From positions 1 through 64,000 of the IMG/VR virus record IMGVR_UViG_2913167280_000003: a stretch of DNA of 64,000 nucleotides. One strand, given 5' to 3'. Under the pieces are notes generated by a model that saw only the letters and a program-made list of their open reading frames with translations, ran no database searches and was not told where the DNA came from. Both the position numbers and the translations under genes were made by a program. Shown here in pieces: positions 2,849 through 51,560 of this stretch (position 1 is the first letter of the stretch; the number at the start of each line of letters is the position of its first letter). The DNA is from a virus. Taxonomy: Duplodnaviria > Heunggongvirae > Uroviricota > Caudoviricetes.

Positions 2849-5800
2849 CCTCGCCAGCTGCGTGCTGCGCCTTGATGTAGTTCTGAAGGTCGATAGTAGC
2901 CTGTTCTTTCTGGCGAGCGCGTTGCGCTGCTTTCGCCTTATCCATTTGAACCTGCATCATAGCCAAACGTTCGCCGTCATCCTTAGCGGTATACATCTGC
3001 ATTTCGATCATGTCGTTGGCGTCGGCGTTCTCCATTTCTGACTTATCTGAACGGAGAATATCGGATATCCAACCAGCTTTACGTTTCAGTGTCTTCAGGC
3101 GGTATTCATCGAAAGAACCCTTGCCGCAGTAGTAGTGAACGCGAACGCTTGCACGGTTGGAGCCAACACGGGCGCCGCGACCGTTACGCTGTGCAATACT
3201 GGCTGGAGTCCACGGCAACGTCAGGTGGTGGATATCCGTCGTTCCTCGATGCAGGTTGATACCCACCTCTGCCTTTTTGTTGCAGATGATGATCGGGGTC
3301 CGGCCCTCCTGGAAGTCGGCAGCAATCTTTTCCAGCCCGCCCAGCGACATTTCATTTTGCTGCGCGATATAGGCGTCATACAGAGCCATTTGCTCGTTGT
3401 ATTTCGCTATCTGTGCATCTGTTGGTTCATCCGGTAGCTCTTTCGGAGGTTTAACCGCTTTCAGTTTCTTACCGGTTTTACCTGCCTCTGCAACCGTCTG
3501 AGCATTCAGGATCCCCACCTTTGAAGGTTCAAGGTTAAGAGCATTGCAGATAATGCGCTTGAGCTTCTGGTGCTGCGTTTTTTCATCGGTGAAGATGATT
3601 TGCTTACCTTCCGGGAAAAACTCCTTCAGCGTGGCAATCAGCTTCGCGTATTTGGGCGTAACGGGGTGAGTTACGGTCTGTTCGTCAATGCCAAACCTGG
3701 CCAGGCGCTTATTCACTTCCTGCTCGAACGCTTCCGGAACCTGCAACTGAATAAACTCGCCCTTATCTATCAGGGAGTATTGCGATTGTTGCGTGATTGA
3801 ATCATCACTGTCGTCGTCTTCGCTGGTGGCTTGTTTAGGCAAACTGTCCGCCAGCTGCTGCACCGCATCGGCGTACTCCGGCAGGAAACGATAGGTGATC
3901 CGGCGATAGTACAGGTCCATGTCAGTACATACGCGGTCCATATCCCTGATTATTGAGAAGATCGGACGGGCTTTCTCGTGCTCAATCACGCCGTCTTCAT
4001 TGACCGAGGTCGTTACGCCATTGTTGGCTTTGGCCGCCGCTTCCACCTGCTGACGCAATTCTTCATACGCCGCCAGTTGTTCTTCAGTAAGTGGTGCATC
4101 CTGCTGGTGCTCGTCCAGCTCCGGGATCTCCACGGTATCCTTAACGTCTTCCGCCGTTTTAAGCGTTGTCCACCGATGGAATATACCGCGCAGCGCATCA
4201 AGGTTTTCAAAGCCCACCAGCGCCATTTTTTCTTCAACTTCACCGCTTATTTTCTGTACCGCTTCCAGCCTGGTCTTGCCGAAGAATTTAACGAAGTCAT
4301 CAGGACCGTAGATCCCCATCTTCTGCCAGTATTCCTTCGGCAGAACATGAAAAAGCATGTTGTATGCATCGATCGGGGTGTTAACGACTGGCGTTGCAGT
4401 CAGGAGAACCGGTCCGCGCCCGCCATTCTTTTTCATCAGGTACGCGTTTTTGATTGCCATATCTCTCGCCGATTGCGCTACCGCGCTGGTGGGCAGATAG
4501 GCCAACTGTGACGCTTCGCGACCATTTTTATAGCTATTGCGGTAGTTGTGGCCTTCGTCGGCGATCACGCTGTCGAAGCCCATATCCTCAAAGTACGGAT
4601 ACTTCTCTGCTTTTTCGGTGCCGGTATCTGAATACTCCGACAATATCCGGCGGCGCGCCGCCTCTTTGCGATGGGAATCGGAATCCATTGCGCTGGCTAC
4701 GCGCCCGGCAGCAACGAAGTCATAAAGCATATCCTGTGCATGCTCATCTACGGTGTCATCGCGTAGCGGAATGCGGGCGTATTGTTCTTTGGTAAACACG
4801 ACTGCACGGTAATTTGAGTGCAGGATCGCGTTCATCCGCGCCGTGATAGTGGCTTCATCTGCCAGCTTAAGGGCATCGCGCATAAGTGGAGTGCCATCAG
4901 CATCAAGTACAGGTTTACCGTTCTCATCGAGCACCGGCGCCTGGCGAATCTGATCGCCGTCCATCAGTACATCCAGACCGACGAACAGGTAGTTACTGAA
5001 GGCTTCTTCACTCAGGAACTCTTTTGCTTCGTAATACCAGTTTTCCAGCACTGATTTAGGCACTACATAAGCAGTACGGGTGGAGCGACCGTTCTCATAG
5101 TTGAACGCCTCAAGCGCCAGCGCGGTCGTGGTTTTACCTATTCCAGTACCGAATCCCATAATGCCGCGCCCATCTTCGGACAGTCGGCGCACCTCGCTAT
5201 TCTGGTAATCAAATGGCTGTCGCTTACCGCTTAATCCCTTCAACCCAAGCGGATCGCCAGAATGTTCATACGGGATATTGCTATTGAAAACAGTGTTGTA
5301 TTTGGCAACCAGCTCATCGTAGCGATCATGCGTCTTGAGCCACTTATTGAACTGCTCCTCAAGCAGAGCCATCTGCTCGCGGTACCCGTTCGCCGTCGTG
5401 CTATCTTTGCCACCGATACGCGCACCATTGAGATACTTTTCCAGCTGTGCCGGGAACCCGGTCGCGTTTTCTCCTGATTTACGGTCCCACTCGTAGCGGA
5501 TCTCGCCTGTTTCTTTATCCTTGCGCTGGACGACACCGTATCGGTGCCCGACGAACAGACCATCACCACCGTGATAGGTGTCAGAAACCATTTCGTCGCC
5601 TTCCAGCTGCACTGACTGCACATAGCGCAGATCCGGATAGCCGTTTTCCTGCAAAAATTCCAGAATGACGGAACGGTCGAACCAACGGCTATTGAGCTTA
5701 AACCGGATATTCTCTGCTGGCGTCTTGATGCGCTTCTCTTCGATCGCTGCCAGCTGATTAAGGACGTTGTTCTTTACTGGACCGTCGGGGAGTGTGGCAA

Positions 5801-7712
5801 GGAATTCCTGTTTTGGAGCCACTATCTCGTTAATGTCGCCGCTGGTGGCGCGGGCGAACGGAACAATCCCGCCATACGGTGAAACCGCAATACCAGGGGT
5901 GCTGGCCAATAAATTAAGCAACTCTTCATCACTGGCTGGCAGTTCGCCGGTAAACGCAAGGCGGAAATCATCGAGCTGGATTGGATCGCGGGTAAGATCG
6001 CTATAGAGATAACGCAGGGTGTCCTGATAGCTGGTGGAGTCATAACTGGCGCTGGAATCATGCGTGACCAGCTTTCCTGTCAGCTCGTCAGAAATAGTGC
6101 CATCCAGCTTAATTGCACCACGGAAAGCAAACCAGGCGCGCGCACCGCTTCCCGATAATTTAGCTATCGGACCGCGACCGGGGTTACCAAAACGGTCAAT
6201 CTCTGCCTGCAAACGGGATACCAGAGAAAGGCGCTGCTGTTCGATTTGTTCAGCACTATGCCCGGCGGCCTTCATATCCTGATATTCAATTAACATCCGG
6301 CCAATCATCGCCCCGCGATACAAGCGTTCACGGTATTTTTCAGGCTGGCTGTTAATCCAGTCCACCAGCTGTACCATATCGTCGCTGATTGATGTGGTGT
6401 ACTTATCGCGGACATTTGCCATCTGGGTAAATGTCATGCCGAGACGGCCTTCAGTGGTAGTCAGGTTACGCTGAAGAGCCTCCCAGCTATCCGCGCCATA
6501 ACTGGCAACATCAATCTTCAGCTCCTTCCCGGCATCAGCTTCAATCCAGCGACCACCAGCATATTTTTGCCATACGCCATTAATCAGGCGCATTTCCCCT
6601 TCATCAACAACGTCTGCGGTCGGTGACGGTTCAGCCATATCAAGCAAAGACCAGTCGATACGGCTTTCGAAACGATGAATCAGCTTCGCTTTAAGAGCCT
6701 GGTTATCAATCTGCCCGTCGGCACGAACCTCAATACGCCCCTGGAATCCCTTCTCCTGGGTGCCATGAATAAACCGGCGGCCGTCCTTTTCAAACCACTT
6801 GCCAGAAATAAACGTTGGCCAAAGCACATTTGCCGATTCAAGAGTACCTTCATCCACCAGGGGGATTTTCTCAGCCATCTCCGCCGGATGTTTGCGCATC
6901 AGCACCACGTCAACGACTGTACTGGTCCCGTTTGCGTCAAAAGTACCGGTAGGCAAGCGGTGAGCGCCAAGAAATTCAGCTTTACGGGATAGGCGCAGGC
7001 GTAACCGCTTCATGTTTGAACCTGAAACAATGGACGGCGGCACAATCACACACATGAATCCGCCTGGCTTTATCTTGTCCAGCATGCGGAGCATGAAGTA
7101 AGAACCCATGTCCGTTTCTTCTGCGTAAGGCTTATCGATGTTGCGTGTGTTATCACGCCCGCCGAACGGAACGTTACCCACAACATGGTCGAATGAATCG
7201 TTAGGCGTGCTTACAGCCAGCTGTTCGAACGGGGAAATCTGTACGCTGTCTTCCGGATGCAACAGCTGGTTTATACGACCGGAAACACTGCTGATCTCAG
7301 TCGCAGTCATCACTGTACCAACCGGTTTTGTCTCATTAAAAACACCGGTTCCCGCGGAAGGTTCCAGGGTGTTACCTACGTCCGCGCCATAGAGCTTCAT
7401 GATCTCCCAGACGCCTTCAGCGATAGGTTTTGGTGTGTAATATTCGGAGACGGACCCGCCAATGCCGCCTTCACCGGTGTACCCAGCCAGGATCTGGCGC
7501 TGTTCATCTGTCAGTGTCGTGCCGTCCACCAGCGAATTAAGCAAATCTATCGCCTTCTGATTCGCCTCCCGGCGCAGTCGGTCATAGCTTTTGCCTTCCA
7601 CCTTTTCCACGCCGTATCTAATCGGCGCTCGATGAGATGTTATTGCCCTAATGTATTTCAATATTTCGCTGACACTTGAACAGCGAAAAACCCCCATAGA
7701 TAGCTTGTTCAT
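2826..7712 (-). CDS. darB: DarB-like antirestriction protein, N-terminal segment (N6-adenine methyltransferase-like and SF2 helicase-like domains)
   Basis: 1628-aa ORF. SAM-binding-like motif LEPSAGTGVF, NVPFGG (NPPY-like), Walker A GFGTGIGKTT and DEGH box. Confidence 0.75.
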   Translation of the reverse strand: MNKLSMGVFRCSSVSEILKYIRAITSHRAPIRYGVEKVEGKSYDRLRREANQKAIDLLNSLVDGTTLTDEQRQILAGYTGEGGIGGSVSEYYTPKPIAEGVWEIMKLYGADVGNTLEPSAGTGVFNETKPVGTVMTATEISSVSGRINQLLHPEDSVQISPFEQLAVSTPNDSFDHVVGNVPFGGRDNTRNIDKPYAEETDMGSYFMLRMLDKIKPGGFMCVIVPPSIVSGSNMKRLRLRLSRKAEFLGAHRLPTGTFDANGTSTVVDVVLMRKHPAEMAEKIPLVDEGTLESANVLWPTFISGKWFEKDGRRFIHGTQEKGFQGRIEVRADGQIDNQALKAKLIHRFESRIDWSLLDMAEPSPTADVVDEGEMRLINGVWQKYAGGRWIEADAGKELKIDVASYGADSWEALQRNLTTTEGRLGMTFTQMANVRDKYTTSISDDMVQLVDWINSQPEKYRERLYRGAMIGRMLIEYQDMKAAGHSAEQIEQQRLSLVSRLQAEIDRFGNPGRGPIAKLSGSGARAWFAFRGAIKLDGTISDELTGKLVTHDSSASYDSTSYQDTLRYLYSDLTRDPIQLDDFRLAFTGELPASDEELLNLLASTPGIAVSPYGGIVPFARATSGDINEIVAPKQEFLATLPDGPVKNNVLNQLAAIEEKRIKTPAENIRFKLNSRWFDRSVILEFLQENGYPDLRYVQSVQLEGDEMVSDTYHGGDGLFVGHRYGVVQRKDKETGEIRYEWDRKSGENATGFPAQLEKYLNGARIGGKDSTTANGYREQMALLEEQFNKWLKTHDRYDELVAKYNTVFNSNIPYEHSGDPLGLKGLSGKRQPFDYQNSEVRRLSEDGRGIMGFGTGIGKTTTALALEAFNYENGRSTRTAYVVPKSVLENWYYEAKEFLSEEAFSNYLFVGLDVLMDGDQIRQAPVLDENGKPVLDADGTPLMRDALKLADEATITARMNAILHSNYRAVVFTKEQYARIPLRDDTVDEHAQDMLYDFVAAGRVASAMDSDSHRKEAARRRILSEYSDTGTEKAEKYPYFEDMGFDSVIADEGHNYRNSYKNGREASQLAYLPTSAVAQSARDMAIKNAYLMKKNGGRGPVLLTATPVVNTPIDAYNMLFHVLPKEYWQKMGIYGPDDFVKFFGKTRLEAVQKISGEVEEKMALVGFENLDALRGIFHRWTTLKTAEDVKDTVEIPELDEHQQDAPLTEEQLAAYEELRQQVEAAAKANNGVTTSVNEDGVIEHEKARPIFSIIRDMDRVCTDMDLYYRRITYRFLPEYADAVQQLADSLPKQATSEDDDSDDSITQQSQYSLIDKGEFIQLQVPEAFEQEVNKRLARFGIDEQTVTHPVTPKYAKLIATLKEFFPEGKQIIFTDEKTQHQKLKRIICNALNLEPSKVGILNAQTVAEAGKTGKKLKAVKPPKELPDEPTDAQIAKYNEQMALYDAYIAQQNEMSLGGLEKIAADFQEGRTPIIICNKKAEVGINLHRGTTDIHHLTLPWTPASIAQRNGRGARVGSNRASVRVHYYCGKGSFDEYRLKTLKRKAGWISDILRSDKSEMENADANDMIEMQMYTAKDDGERLAMMQVQMDKAKAAQRARQKEQATIDLQNYIKAQHAAGEDVGGTYR

Positions 7713-45876: not shown

Positions 45877-47604
45877 TTACTCAGAGTCACCAGCATCAAT
45901 CGTGTTACCGGTCAGGAAGTTAATTCCGCCATTTTTGGCCATAGTCAGAGTTACACGGGTGAAGTAGTCAGCACCGTTGCGTGGATGCATATCGTTGATA
46001 GCAGAACCCCACAGAGTGGTTCGGTTGACCAGTGCCGGGGTGGTCGGATGCTGGAATGGGATAGCTGGGACCGCATCACCAGTCACGAAGCCTGCCTTGC
46101 CCGGATTTTCATCACGGACGTAGCACAGCACATCCATCGGGCTGAACTGGATACCTTCGGCGGTCAGGTTCGTGCAAATACCCTCAGGTACTTCGTACAC
46201 CTTCACGTTACCGAACAGGGTGCCGATGAAGTGAACGTACGGAGTCTGGGTATAGTCTTCAGCTGGCTGGAAGAAATCCTTCGGAAGCTGTTTGAAGAAA
46301 GATGCTGCATCAGCACCAGCAAACATCCCCATCGCACCAGAAGATTTAACGCGCTCAATAATGTCGCGATATACAGTCTGGAATTTGCCGCGAATGATGG
46401 TTGCCCATACATCAAAGGATTGGTTAACCGGCAGAGCGATGTCAAAGGAGTCGGTCGCAAGAGTACGCCAGATCATGATGCGAAGACGCAGCATATCCTG
46501 TTCATGAGACAGGTATTCCTTCAGGGTGCGGAACTGTAGGGAACCCAGGTCCAGACCAAACTCACGCTGTGCTTCATACGCCGCCTGTACCGTGTGCTCA
46601 GCCGCGATAACGAACTGGCTTGGGAACAAGGTGTATTTCTTCATTTCGTGGTTGATCAGCGGGATAAGCTCAGGAGCGGCTTCAATATTGATTTCCGTCT
46701 CAATTGCGATCTCAGTGCCTTTATCCGGCGCTTTGGAGAACGACAGGGCAATCTGACCAATGTTGTAGTTCAGAGAGCAGGTAACAGTGATTTGCTCCCC
46801 AGCAGCATTAGTAAACGAGTGAAGTAGGCTGCCGGAGCCGTTATCAACAACAGACTTAATACGGTTAACGTAGATGTTAGTGCGACCTTTGCGAATTGGG
46901 ACATTCTGGCCTTCGAAGTCTTCCATCTTGAAGGTTGCGGTTTTGCTGGTGCCATCGGAGCTTGCCACCAGCACATAGCGGCGGCGTAACTGGCTGTACA
47001 CACCAACGGACTGCATGTCCAGAACATCACCAGCAGCATAAGAACCAAAAGAAGAACCCGCCACGTTAAAGACTTCGTAGATGTCGGACTGGTCACGCGT
47101 AACCGGAATGAAGGTACACGCATCAGCGGTAGCTGCCCCCAACTGAACAGGCAGGATCATCGCCAGGAATAAAGGCAGACGCATAACACCGTCAGAAACA
47201 CTCATCATCTCTGCCGCGACTGATTCCAGCATCGCTTTATTGGTGGAGTCCATGCTATTGCGGGTGGACTCAATCAGGCAGTTTTCCAGCGTCTGGTGGC
47301 AGGAGGCCAGAATTTCCGGACGCGGCATAGATTTATGTGTTGCGGCATAGTCAGCCAGTGCACTTGCCCATGCGGTAGCAATTTGAGCGGTGGCATTATC
47401 AGAAATACCCGCAAAAATCGGGTCTTTGCGTGCAGCTTCAAGGATAGATGCGGCACGCGCGGCATCATCTTTGATGAATTGGTTATCAGTACCGAACTGT
47501 GCTGTACTTGCCCAGCCAAGAACGGCTTTAGAGCGTTTTGCGATATCTGCAATACGATTCTGGTATTCGCGTAAGTTACTCAAGTTACTCTTCCTTAAAC
47601 ACAA
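45877..47604 (-). CDS. Major capsid protein (gp23-like)
   Basis: 575-aa ORF adjacent to parS, preceded by a late-promoter-like motif; TTG start in the ORF track, so the true start is uncertain. Confidence 0.55.
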   Translation of the reverse strand: MCLRKSNLSNLREYQNRIADIAKRSKAVLGWASTAQFGTDNQFIKDDAARAASILEAARKDPIFAGISDNATAQIATAWASALADYAATHKSMPRPEILASCHQTLENCLIESTRNSMDSTNKAMLESVAAEMMSVSDGVMRLPLFLAMILPVQLGAATADACTFIPVTRDQSDIYEVFNVAGSSFGSYAAGDVLDMQSVGVYSQLRRRYVLVASSDGTSKTATFKMEDFEGQNVPIRKGRTNIYVNRIKSVVDNGSGSLLHSFTNAAGEQITVTCSLNYNIGQIALSFSKAPDKGTEIAIETEINIEAAPELIPLINHEMKKYTLFPSQFVIAAEHTVQAAYEAQREFGLDLGSLQFRTLKEYLSHEQDMLRLRIMIWRTLATDSFDIALPVNQSFDVWATIIRGKFQTVYRDIIERVKSSGAMGMFAGADAASFFKQLPKDFFQPAEDYTQTPYVHFIGTLFGNVKVYEVPEGICTNLTAEGIQFSPMDVLCYVRDENPGKAGFVTGDAVPAIPFQHPTTPALVNRTTLWGSAINDMHPRNGADYFTRVTLTMAKNGGINFLTGNTIDAGDSE

Positions 47605-47634
47605 GGCACTTGTGTGAATCCCTTTTCGGAAGAG

Positions 47635-47659
47635 ATTTTATTGAAAGTCACTTGTTGAC
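47635..47659 (-). promoter_or_regulatory. P1-type late promoter candidate upstream of the major capsid gene
   Basis: Minus strand reads GTCAACAAGTGACTT, TCAA, TAAAAT about 30 nt upstream of the ORF start. Confidence 0.45.
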
Positions 47660-47720
47660 TTTCTCGCGAAAAGTAATTTTTTAAATTTTTTATGCGGGGA
47701 AGCGGACGGTGAAAGCAGGC

Positions 47721-47800
47721 GTTAAATCGTGGGAATTTCAGTCTGAAATTTTTCTAAAAAATATATTTAAATCATGATGTTAGAAATGAAATTGGCGCGG
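47721..47800. other. parS: parS-like partition centromere
   Basis: About 80 bp downstream of parB, AT-rich centre flanked by heptamer-like boxes (AATTTCA, TGAAATT); layout resembles the P1 parS as I recall it but the box sequences differ. Confidence 0.5.
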
Positions 47801-47847
47801 GACATTTTAGGAAGGGGAGGGGCTAACACCACCTCCCACCAGCAGGT

Positions 47848-48813
47848 TTATTTTCCTGCGGACATTTTCTCAATGATTTTTTTTATTGCTTCGTCAATTT
47901 CAGTTTGCACTTCAGATGGGAGTCTGGAGAACTCGTAGGCGACTACTCGTTTTTTCGGATCGGTCTTCTTTCGTGCGTACTGGCGTCGGTCAGAGAAATC
48001 TCGCAGCTTCTCTACCACTACAGATTTAACCGGCGCAGGTTTCAGGCTTTTGCTTTCCGCTTTGAAGATAGCCAGTATCTTCGCTTTATCCTCTTTCGCG
48101 CCCTCAGTCTCTGCAATTCGCTCGCGCACCGTATCAACCAGTTCTCCAATCGGTACGTTTTTAGCGTTAGCATCTTCGGAGATCTGGAGCAGCAACTGGT
48201 AATCAGGCAGGGCGAGATCGCTGGCAACAGGGAAGACAGCAATCATCTCATCCGGCACTGCCGCAGCCTGGAAAGCTCGCGTCACTTTAGCCTTTGAGAT
48301 GTTCTCAGCTCGGGCGATCTCTTCTTTGGTCATATTCTTGCCGTACATAACCTCGAAGCGTTTACCCAGCTCGCGCAGGGTGTGTTCGCGGGCTGTCTGG
48401 ATATCAATGGCCAGCTGGCGGGCATCCGCCAGGCTGATCTCATCTTTTGTCACCAGAATCTCAAATTTCGTTTCATTGAAGATACACGCAGCGCGGCGGC
48501 GTGATCCGTCCAATACCTCAATGCGCTCCCCAACCATACGACCGATAGCCGGGAAGAACTGTTGCAATTTAATGGTGCGGGAAATATCGCTTACCGACTC
48601 AGGAGTAAGCAGAGACTGATCGCGGCCGTTAACTGCCGGGTCAACGAACGTGCGCGACTCAATCTCACCACTCAGCACAACGGTAAGCAAAAATTTAGCC
48701 TGGCGGCCAGATTTTAGGGTAAAGGTTTTGGTGCCTTCACTGCCTTCAAGCATGCGAGCAAACTCGGAGCTATTCTTGCCCAGCACTCGTCCACGGGAAA
48801 CTATTTTCTTCAT
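47848..48813 (-). CDS. parB: Partition protein ParB (centromere-binding)
   Basis: 321-aa ORF overlapping the parA stop; ParB-box-like LDGSRRRAACIF. Confidence 0.85.
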   Translation of the reverse strand: MKKIVSRGRVLGKNSSEFARMLEGSEGTKTFTLKSGRQAKFLLTVVLSGEIESRTFVDPAVNGRDQSLLTPESVSDISRTIKLQQFFPAIGRMVGERIEVLDGSRRRAACIFNETKFEILVTKDEISLADARQLAIDIQTAREHTLRELGKRFEVMYGKNMTKEEIARAENISKAKVTRAFQAAAVPDEMIAVFPVASDLALPDYQLLLQISEDANAKNVPIGELVDTVRERIAETEGAKEDKAKILAIFKAESKSLKPAPVKSVVVEKLRDFSDRRQYARKKTDPKKRVVAYEFSRLPSEVQTEIDEAIKKIIEKMSAGK

Positions 48814-50021
48814 GCCGACTCACCCCTGACAAACTCAATCCGATCAAACACAGCCTTAGTGAAACGCTCGGCCTCGGTTCGTGCCTTCTTCAGTGCCTCA
48901 GCACTGCCTGGATATGATTGCGGGTTGGCACTGATTACGGTGTCGAAAGACTCGCCGCATCGCTCGAAGCCATCCAGGCGAGGCAGAGAAGAGTCCAGAA
49001 TGTTGCTGGCGTAAACCTCGCGCGCAAGGCTGTGTGATGTCTCGTGGTCGCGCTTGCCGGTCATCTTCGACATAAAACCAATGCTGGCGCTTAAACGCGG
49101 CTCTACGCCTTCCTCCTCCAGTTGCTCCAGCATTTCTGGCAGACGGGTGAGATATTTCAGAGTTGAGTGGAAGTCAACCTGGGCTGGTGGGGTAGGGGTA
49201 AGCAACAGATCGCTTGCCGCCAGACCGTTAAGCAGGAACGGATCCAGGTGCGGACCGGTATCGATAAAGATAAAGTCATAATCGTCAGCAACACGATCAA
49301 TGATATTGCGTCGAAGGATTTCGTACTGATTTTGTCCAGGAAGATGCTCTTCAACCAGCTCTTTCCATTGGCTGGCAACAAAACCATCGTCGATAGAGGC
49401 TGGAATCACGTCTACGCCAGGAACGATGGTCGGACGAATCACCTCTTTGCGTAGCGTCTCCGCGTCCAGGTCGTTCAGCATCGCCTGCGCGGCTGTTTCC
49501 AGAATGGAGCCAATACTGTGAGTATGGTCGAGGAACATTGTGCTGGATGCCTGCGGGTCAAGGTCAATAACCAGAATGCGCAGGTCGTGACGCAGTAAAT
49601 CCTGATGCACACGCAGCGCGTGCGCCAACGTGACTGTGGAAACCGTTTTGGATACGCCACCTTTCAGGTTTACGACAAAAATAACGTAAGGCGATTTGTG
49701 AATGTCGCGATATTTGGGAATCTTGCGGTGGGCATAGATATCAATGACGTTCTGGATGGTGAGCGCGTACTGTTCAACGTTACCGACCTGTTTCTTGTTG
49801 AACTGGTACCCATCATCTTCCATCTCTTTGATGGCCTGCTCCACAATGCGGCGGCTCAGCTTCGGCAACTTTGCCACAGCGTTACGAGTAAACGTCTGAT
49901 AATACTCGGTCTGATTGAACTCTTTGCGCTGATCTTCGATATCCTGGCTCATGGCCTTCAGCAATGCGCTTGCACGAAGAGCTATGGTGCCGACACCGCC
50001 GTAATCGCGTTTCATCATCAT
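48810..50021 (-). CDS. parA: Partition ATPase ParA
   Basis: 403-aa ORF with deviant Walker A NLKGGVSKTVSTVTLAHAL, between the incA iterons and parB. Confidence 0.9.
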   Translation of the reverse strand: MMMKRDYGGVGTIALRASALLKAMSQDIEDQRKEFNQTEYYQTFTRNAVAKLPKLSRRIVEQAIKEMEDDGYQFNKKQVGNVEQYALTIQNVIDIYAHRKIPKYRDIHKSPYVIFVVNLKGGVSKTVSTVTLAHALRVHQDLLRHDLRILVIDLDPQASSTMFLDHTHSIGSILETAAQAMLNDLDAETLRKEVIRPTIVPGVDVIPASIDDGFVASQWKELVEEHLPGQNQYEILRRNIIDRVADDYDFIFIDTGPHLDPFLLNGLAASDLLLTPTPPAQVDFHSTLKYLTRLPEMLEQLEEEGVEPRLSASIGFMSKMTGKRDHETSHSLAREVYASNILDSSLPRLDGFERCGESFDTVISANPQSYPGSAEALKKARTEAERFTKAVFDRIEFVRGESA

Positions 50022-50130
50022 CTCCTTATCGTTTCGTATAAGTGAATTGTACGTGTGATTCTGTTACGTGCAACTTTTTTTGATATGTGCGTTATTTATT
50101 GCACGTTATGAAATAGCGAAGGGGCTATTC

Positions 50131-50416
50131 GATGTGTGCTGGAGGGATGATGAAGGCCCAGAATATGCGATAGAGGGAAGTCGCATTAAATTATGTGTTG
50201 TGGAGGGACCGCAGGTATCAAATATGTGCGCTGAAGGGAAAGACAGAAGATTAGATGTGCGCTGGAGGGAAAACCGGATGGTTAGATGTGTGCTGGAGGG
50301 AAAGTCTGGGCAAACTGCGGGGCGCAGCCCTCCAGCGCACACCAAAAACAGGAAAATGGACAGGCATTCCCGGCAGCGCACATTTTTCAAATGCAGCTGC
50401 CCTCCAGCACACACTT
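50131..50416. repeat. incA: incA iteron array (RepA-binding 19-bp repeats, both orientations)
   Basis: At least eight copies or variants of GATGTGTGCTGGAGGGAAA (for example 50131-50149, 50254-50272, 50285-50303; inverted at 50326-50343 and 50398-50416). Confidence 0.85.
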
Positions 50417-51275
50417 ATTCGGGAAGTTTCAGCTTTGGATTGCGAGAATGGACGATTACAAAACTTTCCCGGCCTTTCTTCTCAATTGAACAGTCGAGAT
50501 AACCGATTGTTTTAAGCTGTTCTATCGCTTTCTTAATGATACGGTTTTGTTCGCCAACAGCTGACTGCAAAGCCAGGCGCTCGCGGATTCGCGCGAACGA
50601 TAGCGGCAACGGGTTCTGCGGAAGGCTTTCGATGAAAGTGTAAATGGCTTGCGCAGCTTCTTTCTTCGGAAGGGCGCGCAAGGCGTGGTGCTGCAACAGG
50701 ACACGATAATCAAGCTGGAACAGCTCCCACAGCTTCGAGTCGGCTTCCAGCTCGATCAGATCGAGGTCAGCATCGAAACGTCCGACCTTCAACAGACCAG
50801 TCTGGTAGCCACCTTTAGCATCTTTACCGCGCTTAAAAGCGATACCCTTGTTACGCAAGCGGCCAAGTGATTCATGAATGGTTAAACGCAGTTTCGCATC
50901 CAGACGTTTTGAGGGGAAACCACAGGCTTTAGCGAACTCCTGAAACGATAACTGGATGGTGTTTGAAGACAAGCCGTATTTGCTGAACGCGTAGATGACA
51001 CCGATCCACGTTTTGAAATCAGTATCCATATCGAGTCGAGGACCGGTGATTTTAATATCATCGTAACCCTCGGCTTTAGCTATCTCCAGCTGGGAAAATG
51101 CTTTGGTGGCATCAATCTCTTTACTTTCTCCTTTGCTCTTTGATGGCTTCGGCACGAATACCCCCAAACGCATCAACGCTACAGGCTGCACAGTGTTGTT
51201 TGAATTAACTGTTAGTTCTTTTGCCTTACTTTCAATGTCTGCGTAAAGAATATCGGATATAAAAGATTGATTCAT
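50415..51275 (-). CDS. repA: Plasmid replication initiator RepA
   Basis: 286-aa ORF flanked by iteron arrays on both sides, matching P1 RepA length and the P1 iteron sequence. Confidence 0.9.
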   Translation of the reverse strand: MNQSFISDILYADIESKAKELTVNSNNTVQPVALMRLGVFVPKPSKSKGESKEIDATKAFSQLEIAKAEGYDDIKITGPRLDMDTDFKTWIGVIYAFSKYGLSSNTIQLSFQEFAKACGFPSKRLDAKLRLTIHESLGRLRNKGIAFKRGKDAKGGYQTGLLKVGRFDADLDLIELEADSKLWELFQLDYRVLLQHHALRALPKKEAAQAIYTFIESLPQNPLPLSFARIRERLALQSAVGEQNRIIKKAIEQLKTIGYLDCSIEKKGRESFVIVHSRNPKLKLPE

Positions 51276-51289
51276 ATTGCTTTTTCCGA

Positions 51290-51560
51290 ATTATGTGGAT
51301 AGTTTTTATCAGTGATGATAACTACCCAGGCTTTCCCGTCAGCACACATCCTATATCCCGCCAGCACACATTAGCAACCCGTCAGCACACATTTTTTTCC
51401 CTCCAGCGCACATCATTTTCCCTCCAGCACACATCGCGAAAGGCTTCTAAGCCAGACGGGACGCGGCCTACAACGATCAGGGATCTATATGGATCTAATT
51501 GGGATCTGTATGGACCTGATTATTGGATCTATCCAGTGGATAATGTGGATAAGTGAAAAA
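51290..51560. other. oriR: Plasmid origin oriR: DnaA boxes, incC iterons, GATC-rich region
   Basis: Five same-orientation iterons (51333-51435), five GATC sites within 55 bp (51474-51529), DnaA-box matches TGTGGATAA (51544-51552) and TGTGGATAG (51294-51302). Confidence 0.8.

What the first reader, a model, noticed from the sequence alone, without database searches (positions are those of the whole stretch)
47721..47800. parS-like centromere whose box sequences differ from the P1 parS I recall
Downstream of parB there is an ~80-bp AT-rich site with heptamer-like boxes around a central AT-rich stretch, arranged like P1 parS, but the box sequences (for example GGGAATTTCA, TGAAATT, GAAATTGGCG) differ from the P1 ATTTCAC/TCGCCA boxes. 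This suggests a distinct partition specificity, as between P1 and P7, and hence a distinct incompatibility group.
Basis: partly seen in the sequence, partly recalled or inferred. Interest (0 to 1): 0.35.

Follow-up and report, generated by a model that had tools for sequence, protein, structure and literature searches.

The report
Phage P7-type plasmid centromere (parS)
The AT-rich site after parB is a real plasmid centromere, but it is the well-known phage P7 type rather than a new specificity, so it is an ordinary part of a P1/P7-like prophage plasmid.

Summary
An 83-bp site on the minus strand (47721-47803) lies 44 bp downstream of parB (47848-48813) and parA (48810-50021). Its order is boxB1-boxA1-IHF-boxA2-boxA3-boxB2-boxA4, with exactly the spacing annotated for P1 and P7 parS.

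The boxes do differ from P1 (TCGCCA becomes TTCCCA or GTCCCG). But B1, A1, A2, A3 and B2 are base-for-base those annotated in phage P7 (AF503408).

- ParB is 98% identical to P7 ParB and 43% to P1 ParB. At the position of P1 Asp288 it carries the P7 residue, Arg277.
- ParA is at least 99% identical to P7 ParA.
- RepA is 100% identical to P7 RepA, and P1/P7-type iterons flank repA. The replicon is therefore IncY, not a distinct incompatibility group.

The differences from P7 are box A4 (ATTTAAC against GTTTCAC), one spacer base between B1 and A1, the single base between A2 and A3, and the variable AT-rich centre. ATTTAAC is the commonest A4 allele among 43 related sites. Across 13 independently retrieved P7-type sites the boxes are conserved and the spacers vary freely (6/39 against 33/44 variable columns, p=5e-8). 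This is a known element, and interest is low.

The parts
47721..47803 (-). Complete parS centromere, P7 type (B1-A1-IHF-A2-A3-B2-A4), 83 bp
   Evidence: Alignment with the annotated P7 and P1 parS; box coordinates; conservation pattern
47798..47803 (-). Box B1, GTCCCG (identical to P7; P1 has TCGCCA)
   Evidence: 38 of 43 related sites have GTCCCG
47786..47792 (-). Box A1, ATTTCAT (identical to P7)
   Evidence: 41 of 43 related sites
47770..47782 (+). IHF-like core AATCATGATGTTA (1 mismatch to WATCAANNNNTTR), preceded by an A/T-rich tract, at the position annotated as the IHF site in P1 and P7
   Evidence: Positional homology to the annotated IHF sites; the consensus comparison is by eye, from the sequence
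47743..47749 (-). Box A2, ATTTCAG (identical to P7)
47735..47741 (-). Box A3, CTGAAAT (inverted box A; forms an 8+8 palindrome with A2)
   Evidence: inverted repeat I9
47730..47735 (-). Box B2, TTCCCA: the P7 specificity discriminator (P1 has TCGCCA)
   Evidence: invariant in all 13 BLAST-retrieved sites
47721..47727 (-). Box A4, ATTTAAC (P7 GTTTCAC, P1 ATTTCAC): a common natural allele
   Evidence: ATTTAAC in 19 of 43 related sites
47848..48813 (-). parB, 321 aa: centromere-binding protein, 98% identical to P7 ParB and 43% to P1 ParB
48810..50021 (-). parA, 403 aa: type Ia partition ATPase with N-terminal HTH, at least 99% identical to P7 ParA and 58% to P1 ParA
50066..50106 (-). Candidate par promoter and ParA operator: perfect 8-bp inverted repeat ACGTGCAA/TTGCACGT overlapping a TTGCAC-16 nt-TACAAT promoter-like sequence; conserved in P7
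   Evidence: function inferred; the consensus promoter scan did not call it

Best explanation
This is the cis-acting centromere (parS, also the incB determinant) of a P7-type parABS partition cassette. It sits on a P1/P7-like (Punavirus, IncY) prophage plasmid.

Proposed mechanism, by homology with the experimentally studied P1 and P7 systems:
1. Host IHF binds the central core (47770-47782) and bends the AT-rich centre sharply.
2. This brings the left arm (B1-A1) next to the right arm (A2-A3-B2-A4). ParB dimers bind across the bend: the helix-turn-helix domain reads the box A heptamers and the C-terminal dimer domain reads the box B hexamers.
3. The second base of box B (T in TTCCCA) is read by ParB residue Arg277, the counterpart of P1 Asp288. 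This makes the site P7-specific and orthogonal to P1 ParB.
4. Further ParB loads and spreads from this nucleation site to build the partition complex.
5. That complex stimulates nucleoid-bound ParA-ATP, and plasmid copies are moved apart before division.
6. ParA, through its N-terminal HTH and with ParB as co-repressor, autoregulates the operon at the inverted repeat upstream of parA.

Shown here: the sequence anatomy, its identity to the P7 boxes, the identity of ParA, ParB and RepA to P7, and purifying selection on the boxes. Inferred: every binding and segregation step.
For: - The site lies 44 bp downstream of the parAB operon.
- Boxes B1, A1, A2, A3 and B2 are identical to the ParB-binding boxes annotated in the P7 genome AF503408, and the spacing equals that of P7 and P1.
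- The par region is 94.8% identical to P7 over 2.5 kb, whereas P1 proper matches only the 150 bp downstream of parS.
- ParB is 98% identical to P7 ParB, with R277 at the P1 D288 position. None of the six differences from P7 touches that residue. T284 also occurs in other plasmids (L009, L010) that carry the same box B2.
- ParB carries Pfam PF08775 and matches the P1 ParB-parS co-crystal chains 1ZX4 and 2NTZ at E=1e-30. ParA has the type Ia HTH_54 domain plus the ATPase domain.
- In 13 independently retrieved P7-type sites the boxes are conserved while spacers vary and the length is fixed (6/39 against 33/44 variable columns, p=5e-8).
- PMC10999674 states that box B is the specificity discriminator, that only A2-A3-B2 are required for ParB binding, and that P1 Asp288 reads the second base of box B2.
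Against:
- Box A4 departs from the ATTTCAN consensus (ATTTAAC), and the central arm differs from P7 at many positions.
- The exact 87-nt allele was not found in any collection; the nearest differs at 4 of 87 positions. Function of this particular allele is therefore inferred.
- The IHF core has one mismatch to the consensus.
- The annotated position of P7 box B1 rests on the GenBank annotation. The primary P7 papers were not available to me.
Confidence: 0.93

Rival explanations
1. It is a parS of a new, third specificity. It would be orthogonal to both P1 and P7, as pMT1 is, because of the A4 change, the diverged centre and the ParB substitutions (S284T and others).
For: Box A4 ATTTAAC differs from P7 GTTTCAC, and the centre differs at many positions. 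ParB differs from P7 at 6 residues, one of them (T284) in the C-terminal box-B-binding domain. From my own knowledge, Dabrazhynetskaya et al. 2005 reported a second incompatibility determinant independent of box B; I could not read that paper here.
Against: Both box B hexamers and the A2-A3 core are identical to P7, and the discriminator residue is R277 as in P7. ParB proteins with S284 and with T284 occur next to the same box B2, and the same ParB protein occurs with different A4 and centre alleles (L009 and L015 against the window). That pattern looks like neutral drift rather than co-evolution. A4 lies outside the minimal A2-A3-B2 site (PMC10999674).
Confidence: 0.04
2. The AT-rich stretch is mainly a promoter or regulatory region for the downstream head gene (the gene 23 homologue, 45877-47604 minus strand), and the boxes are incidental.
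For: The P1 annotation places a predicted sigma-70 promoter 'P2 23' inside parS. The region lies between parB and the gene 23 homologue.
Against: The consensus scan finds no sigma-70-like promoter in 47500-48000 on either strand. The late-promoter-like element (palindrome GAAAGTCA/TGACTTTC plus TAAAAT) lies further downstream at about 47630-47663, outside the site. Conservation falls on the ParB boxes rather than on promoter hexamers.
Confidence: 0.02
3. It is a decayed, non-functional remnant of a P7 parS on a plasmid that relies on another stabilisation system.
For: The exact allele is unique in the collections searched, and A4 is off consensus.
Against: parA and parB are intact and essentially identical to P7. 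All the boxes of the minimal site (A2-A3-B2; PMC10999674) are intact and the 83-bp geometry is preserved. The ATTTAAC allele of A4 is the commonest among 43 related sites.
Confidence: 0.01

Closest known systems
Phage P7 parS (incB) with P7 ParA and ParB, GenBank AF503408 / X17529
   Same: Boxes B1 GTCCCG, A1 ATTTCAT, A2 ATTTCAG, A3 CTGAAAT and B2 TTCCCA are the same, and so are the 83-bp length and spacing. The position after parB is the same. ParB is 98% identical, ParA at least 99%, RepA 100%. The conserved hairpin between the parB stop and parS is shared, as is the inverted repeat upstream of parA.
   Different: Box A4 is ATTTAAC against GTTTCAC. One spacer base differs between B1 and A1, and one base differs between A2 and A3 (A against G). 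Many positions differ in the AT-rich centre, including the IHF core (TAACATCATGATT against TAAATATATGATA). ParB has six substitutions (S160N, S219N, E223G, S284T, G315E, E321K, written P7 to window). The par region overall is 94.8% identical at the DNA level.
Phage P1 parS (incB) with P1 ParA and ParB, GenBank AF234172; structures 1ZX4 and 2NTZ
   Same: The architecture is the same (B1-A1-IHF-A2-A3-B2-A4) with identical offsets and an IHF site at the same position. The location after parB, the ParB fold (PF08775 C-terminal domain plus HTH) and the type Ia ParA are shared.
   Different: Box B is TCGCCA in P1 against TTCCCA and GTCCCG here. All four box A heptamers differ at one position. ParB is only 43% identical and ParA 58%. 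The discriminator residue is Asp288 in P1 and Arg277 here. A different partition specificity is therefore expected.
P7-type par cassettes of IncY P1-like plasmids in Enterobacteriaceae, for example CP056621 pRHBSTW-00312_2, NZ_CP012497 pCFSAN004178P_01 and E. coli SCPM-O-B-8794
   Same: The ParB protein is identical in CP056621 and SCPM-O-B-8794. The parS core is the same. The ATTTAAC form of box A4 occurs in NZ_CP012497, whose centre is also closest to the window; CP056621 and SCPM-O-B-8794 have GTTTAAC.
   Different: The nearest parS (NZ_CP012497) differs at 4 of 87 positions. CP056621, with an identical ParB, differs at 9 of 87, including B1 GCCCCG and A4 GTTTAAC.

Membership tests
P1par-family parS (type Ia plasmid centromere with box A, box B and IHF site) | Cis site immediately downstream of parB in a parA-parB operon | tested here: met
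   parA 48810-50021 and parB 47848-48813 on the minus strand; the site starts 44 bp after the parB stop
P1par-family parS (type Ia plasmid centromere with box A, box B and IHF site) | Four box A heptamers and two box B hexamers in the order B1-A1-(IHF)-A2-A3-B2-A4, with fixed spacing | tested here: met
   Offsets 0, 11, 21, 54, 62, 68, 76 are identical to the annotated P1 and P7 sites
P1par-family parS (type Ia plasmid centromere with box A, box B and IHF site) | Central IHF binding site that bends the site | tested here: inconclusive
   AATCATGATGTTA has 1 mismatch to WATCAANNNNTTR and sits at the annotated position, preceded by an A/T tract. IHF binding itself cannot be tested here.
P1par-family parS (type Ia plasmid centromere with box A, box B and IHF site) | Cognate ParB with HTH plus the P1-type C-terminal dimer and box B domain; ParA with N-terminal HTH | tested here: met
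   PF08775 E=3e-33; PDB 1ZX4 and 2NTZ E=1e-30; ParA HTH_54 E=4e-37
P1par-family parS (type Ia plasmid centromere with box A, box B and IHF site) | Confers ParA/ParB-dependent plasmid stability and par-mediated incompatibility | not testable with these tools
   Needs plasmid stability and incompatibility assays
P7 partition-specificity class | Box B2 = TTCCCA and box B1 = GTCCCG, as annotated in P7 | tested here: met
   Identical to AF503408 features 61639-61644 and 61707-61712
P7 partition-specificity class | ParB discriminator residue (counterpart of P1 Asp288) as in P7 | tested here: met
   R277 in both the window and P7, against D288 in P1; role of the residue from PMC10999674
P7 partition-specificity class | Functional interchangeability with P7 ParB and incompatibility with P7 par | not testable with these tools
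   Experiment required
P1 partition-specificity class | Box B = TCGCCA and ParB Asp288 | tested here: not met
   Box B is TTCCCA and GTCCCG, and the residue is Arg
IncY (P1/P7) replicon incompatibility group | P1/P7 RepA, with 19-bp iterons (incC, incA) flanking repA | tested here: met
   RepA is 100% identical to P7 RepA. Nine iterons within 4 mismatches of GATGTGTGCTGGAGGGAAA lie at 50131-50415 and 51332-51435. The region is 94-95% identical to P1 and P7 DNA.

The most novel reading that the evidence does not exclude
P7-type centromeres fall into at least two haplotypes. One has the P7-like centre with a TTTCAC-type A4. The other, which includes this window, has a 'TAAC..TTATGATT..TTTTTTAG' centre and mostly ATTTAAC at A4. 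If the second incompatibility determinant, independent of box B, that was reported for the P1par family (recalled from Dabrazhynetskaya et al. 2005, not read here) lies in these variable parts, the two haplotypes could be partition-compatible sub-species while sharing ParB specificity. That would let two P7-par plasmids coexist.
Probability: 0.05. Interest if true: 0.3.

Novelty: already known. Interest (0 to 1): 0.08.

Why it matters
It matters little beyond correct annotation. The result shows that this P1-like prophage plasmid uses the P7 rather than the P1 partition specificity. It should therefore show par-mediated incompatibility with P7-par plasmids and not with P1-par plasmids, while sharing the IncY replicon with both. 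The comparative set also illustrates selection on a centromere: boxes and geometry are fixed while spacers are free. P7-type par is common. It was found on about 235 of about 800 PLSDB plasmid records that matched the par region and its flanks, and in 210 of 5426 complete E. coli genomes.

Tried and rejected
- I tried to read the primary specificity papers (Dabrazhynetskaya 2005 and 2009) by DOI and by PMC id. They are not held. Full-text searches for P7 parS and box B literature gave nothing useful. I relied on the GenBank annotations of P7 and P1 and on PMC10999674 instead.
- Enrichment of box A heptamers across the window is not significant (46 against 40 expected), so I did not use it as evidence.
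- The sigma-70 promoter and intrinsic terminator scans around the site and upstream of parA found nothing. The promoter reading of the site was therefore rejected.
- The genome-wide exact-pattern scan gave two Bacteroidota MAG hits (L016, L017) with no other boxes and no parB. About 4 chance hits are expected for 19 specified bases in 2 x 596 Gb, so I rejected these as chance.
- Invariance of the A2-A3-B2 core in loci L014-L049 follows from how they were found, since the search pattern was that core. The conservation statistic therefore uses only the 13 BLAST-retrieved sites.

Full report
**Observation**

This is correct.

The genes lie on the minus strand: parA at 48810-50021 (403 aa) and parB at 47848-48813 (321 aa). 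Read on the minus strand, the sequence after the parB stop contains, in order:
- a G+C-rich hairpin;
- GTCCCG (47798-47803);
- ATTTCAT (47786-47792);
- an AT-rich centre holding TAACATCATGATT (47770-47782);
- ATTTCAG (47743-47749);
- CTGAAAT (47735-47741);
- TTCCCA (47730-47735);
- ATTTAAC (47721-47727).

The site is 30% G+C against 48% for the window.

**Identity**

A 2.5-kb query covering parA, parB and the site matches phage P7 (AF503408, X17529) end to end at 94.8% identity. Phage P1 proper matches only the last 150 bp, downstream of the site.

The P7 and P1 GenBank records annotate every ParB box and the IHF site. Aligned with them, the window's B1, A1, A2, A3 and B2 are base-for-base those of P7. 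P1 has TCGCCA at both box B positions and different last or first bases in its box A heptamers.

The offsets of the seven elements from B1 (0, 11, 21, 54, 62, 68, 76) are identical in the window, P7 and P1. Each site is exactly 83 bp long.

The differences from P7 are these:
- box A4 (ATTTAAC against GTTTCAC);
- one spacer base between B1 and A1;
- the single base between A2 and A3;
- many positions of the AT-rich centre.

The IHF-like core survives at the same place. It reads AATCATGATGTTA on the plus strand, one mismatch from WATCAANNNNTTR, and it follows an A/T tract.

**Proteins**

- ParB is 98% identical to P7 ParB (six substitutions) and 43% to P1 ParB.
- PMC10999674 summarises the published work as follows. 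Box B is the discriminator between par species, only A2-A3-B2 are needed for ParB binding, and P1 Asp288 reads the second base of box B2.
- The residue aligned with P1 D288 is R277 in both P7 and the window, matching the T at the second position of TTCCCA.
- One of the six substitutions, S284T, lies in the C-terminal domain. T284 also occurs in two other plasmids (L009, L010) that have the same box B2. ParB proteins with S284 and with T284 both sit next to TTCCCA.
- ParB carries PF08775 and matches the P1 ParB-parS co-crystal chains 1ZX4 and 2NTZ (E=1e-30).
- ParA is at least 99% identical to P7 ParA and 58% to P1 ParA. It has the type Ia N-terminal HTH.

**Is it under selection as a binding site?**

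I retrieved eleven further P7-type sites from plasmids by BLAST, without requiring any box. With the window and P7 this gives 13 sites, 12 of them distinct.
- The length is constant.
- Only 6 of 39 box columns vary, against 33 of 44 non-box columns (Fisher p=5e-8).
- A3+B2 is invariant.

An exact-pattern scan for the A2-A3-B2 core added 31 IMG/VR contigs and E. coli, Kluyvera and Pantoea genomes. In that larger set of 43 full sites:
- B1 is GTCCCG in 38 and A1 is ATTTCAT in 41;
- A4 has the alleles ATTTAAC (19), GTTTCAC (15), ATTTCAC (5), GTTTAAC (2) and TTTTCAC (2).

The window's A4 is therefore the commonest natural allele, not a peculiarity. The exact 87-nt allele of the window was not found elsewhere. 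The nearest, NZ_CP012497, differs at 4 positions. Two records with an identical ParB protein (CP056621 and E. coli SCPM-O-B-8794) differ at 9 positions, as neutral drift of the spacers would produce.

**Incompatibility**

- RepA (50415-51275, minus strand) is 100% identical to P7 RepA.
- P1/P7-type 19-bp iterons lie on both sides of repA, at 50131-50415 and 51332-51435.
- The region is 94-95% identical to both P1 and P7.
- Related plasmids are typed IncY.
- The window as a whole is a P1/P7-like Punavirus prophage plasmid, 95-96% identical to P7 over 84% of a 25-kb query.

Only the par-mediated determinant (incB) should differ from P1, and it should coincide with that of P7.

**Mechanism (inferred by homology)**

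1. IHF bends the centre.
2. ParB dimers bridge the two arms, HTH on box A and dimer domain on box B.
3. R277 and the T of box B give P7 specificity.
4. Further ParB loads from this nucleus.
5. ParA-ATP on the nucleoid moves the complexes apart.
6. ParA, through its HTH, represses the operon. The likely operator is the perfect inverted repeat ACGTGCAA-25 nt-TTGCACGT at 50066-50106, which overlaps a TTGCAC-16-TACAAT promoter-like sequence and is conserved in P7.

**Rivals**

- A third specificity is unlikely, because every known discriminator equals P7.
- A promoter reading is not supported.
- Decay is contradicted by intact genes, intact boxes and preserved geometry.

**Verdict**

This is a real feature, correctly spotted and correctly recognised as different from P1. 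It is the already known P7-type parS, so interest is low.

Noticed in passing
window 47813-47836 (minus strand), between the parB stop and box B1: A stable G+C-rich hairpin (GGGAGG-GGU-GUUA-GCC-CCUCCC) folds at -18.4 kcal/mol, z=-3.3 against shuffles. No T-run follows it, so the terminator scan does not call it. It is conserved in all P7-type cassettes and absent from P1. It may be a transcript-end or stability element of the par mRNA.
   Followed up: partly
window 47630-47663 (minus strand), about 60 bp downstream of parS: A perfect 8-bp inverted repeat GAAAGTCA/TGACTTTC is followed by TAAAAT. It sits at the position annotated in P1 and P7 as the late promoter LP23 (-22 box plus -10) ahead of the gene 23 (major head protein) homologue at 45877-47604.
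   Followed up: partly
window 50131-50415 and 51332-51435: Nine P1/P7-type 19-bp RepA iterons (incA and incC arrays) flank repA (50415-51275), whose product is 100% identical to P7 RepA. The replicon is IncY.
   Followed up: yes
L018 2008-2027 (minus strand) against parA 5179-6444 and parB 6441-7424 (Candidatus Pantoea haifensis JAGTWN010000009.1): A ParB 62% identical to the window's (K at the discriminator position) has no recognisable parS after its stop codon. The exact P7 A2-A3-B2 core, with an AT-rich left side, lies about 3 kb upstream of parA on the other strand. This may be a relocated centromere in a more distant P1par-family member.
   Followed up: partly
OP279344.1 54227-56729 (hit H1): A record named 'Escherichia phage P1' carries a P7-type par cassette, 95.0% identical to the window over the whole 2.5 kb. 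P1 proper matches only 150 bp. Names of P1-like records therefore do not predict the par type.
   Followed up: no
L016 3376-3395 and L017 765-784 (Bacteroidota MAGs): These are exact matches to the 20-nt parS core with no other boxes and no parB nearby. The number agrees with the roughly 4 chance hits expected in the 596-Gb collection.
   Followed up: yes
window 39001-64000: About 16% of this 25-kb stretch is not covered by P7, and no phage, plasmid or E. coli record reaches 99% identity over the par region. The best is 96.9% in plasmids and 97.5% in complete E. coli genomes. The window therefore comes from a P1-like lineage not closely represented in these collections.
   Followed up: no
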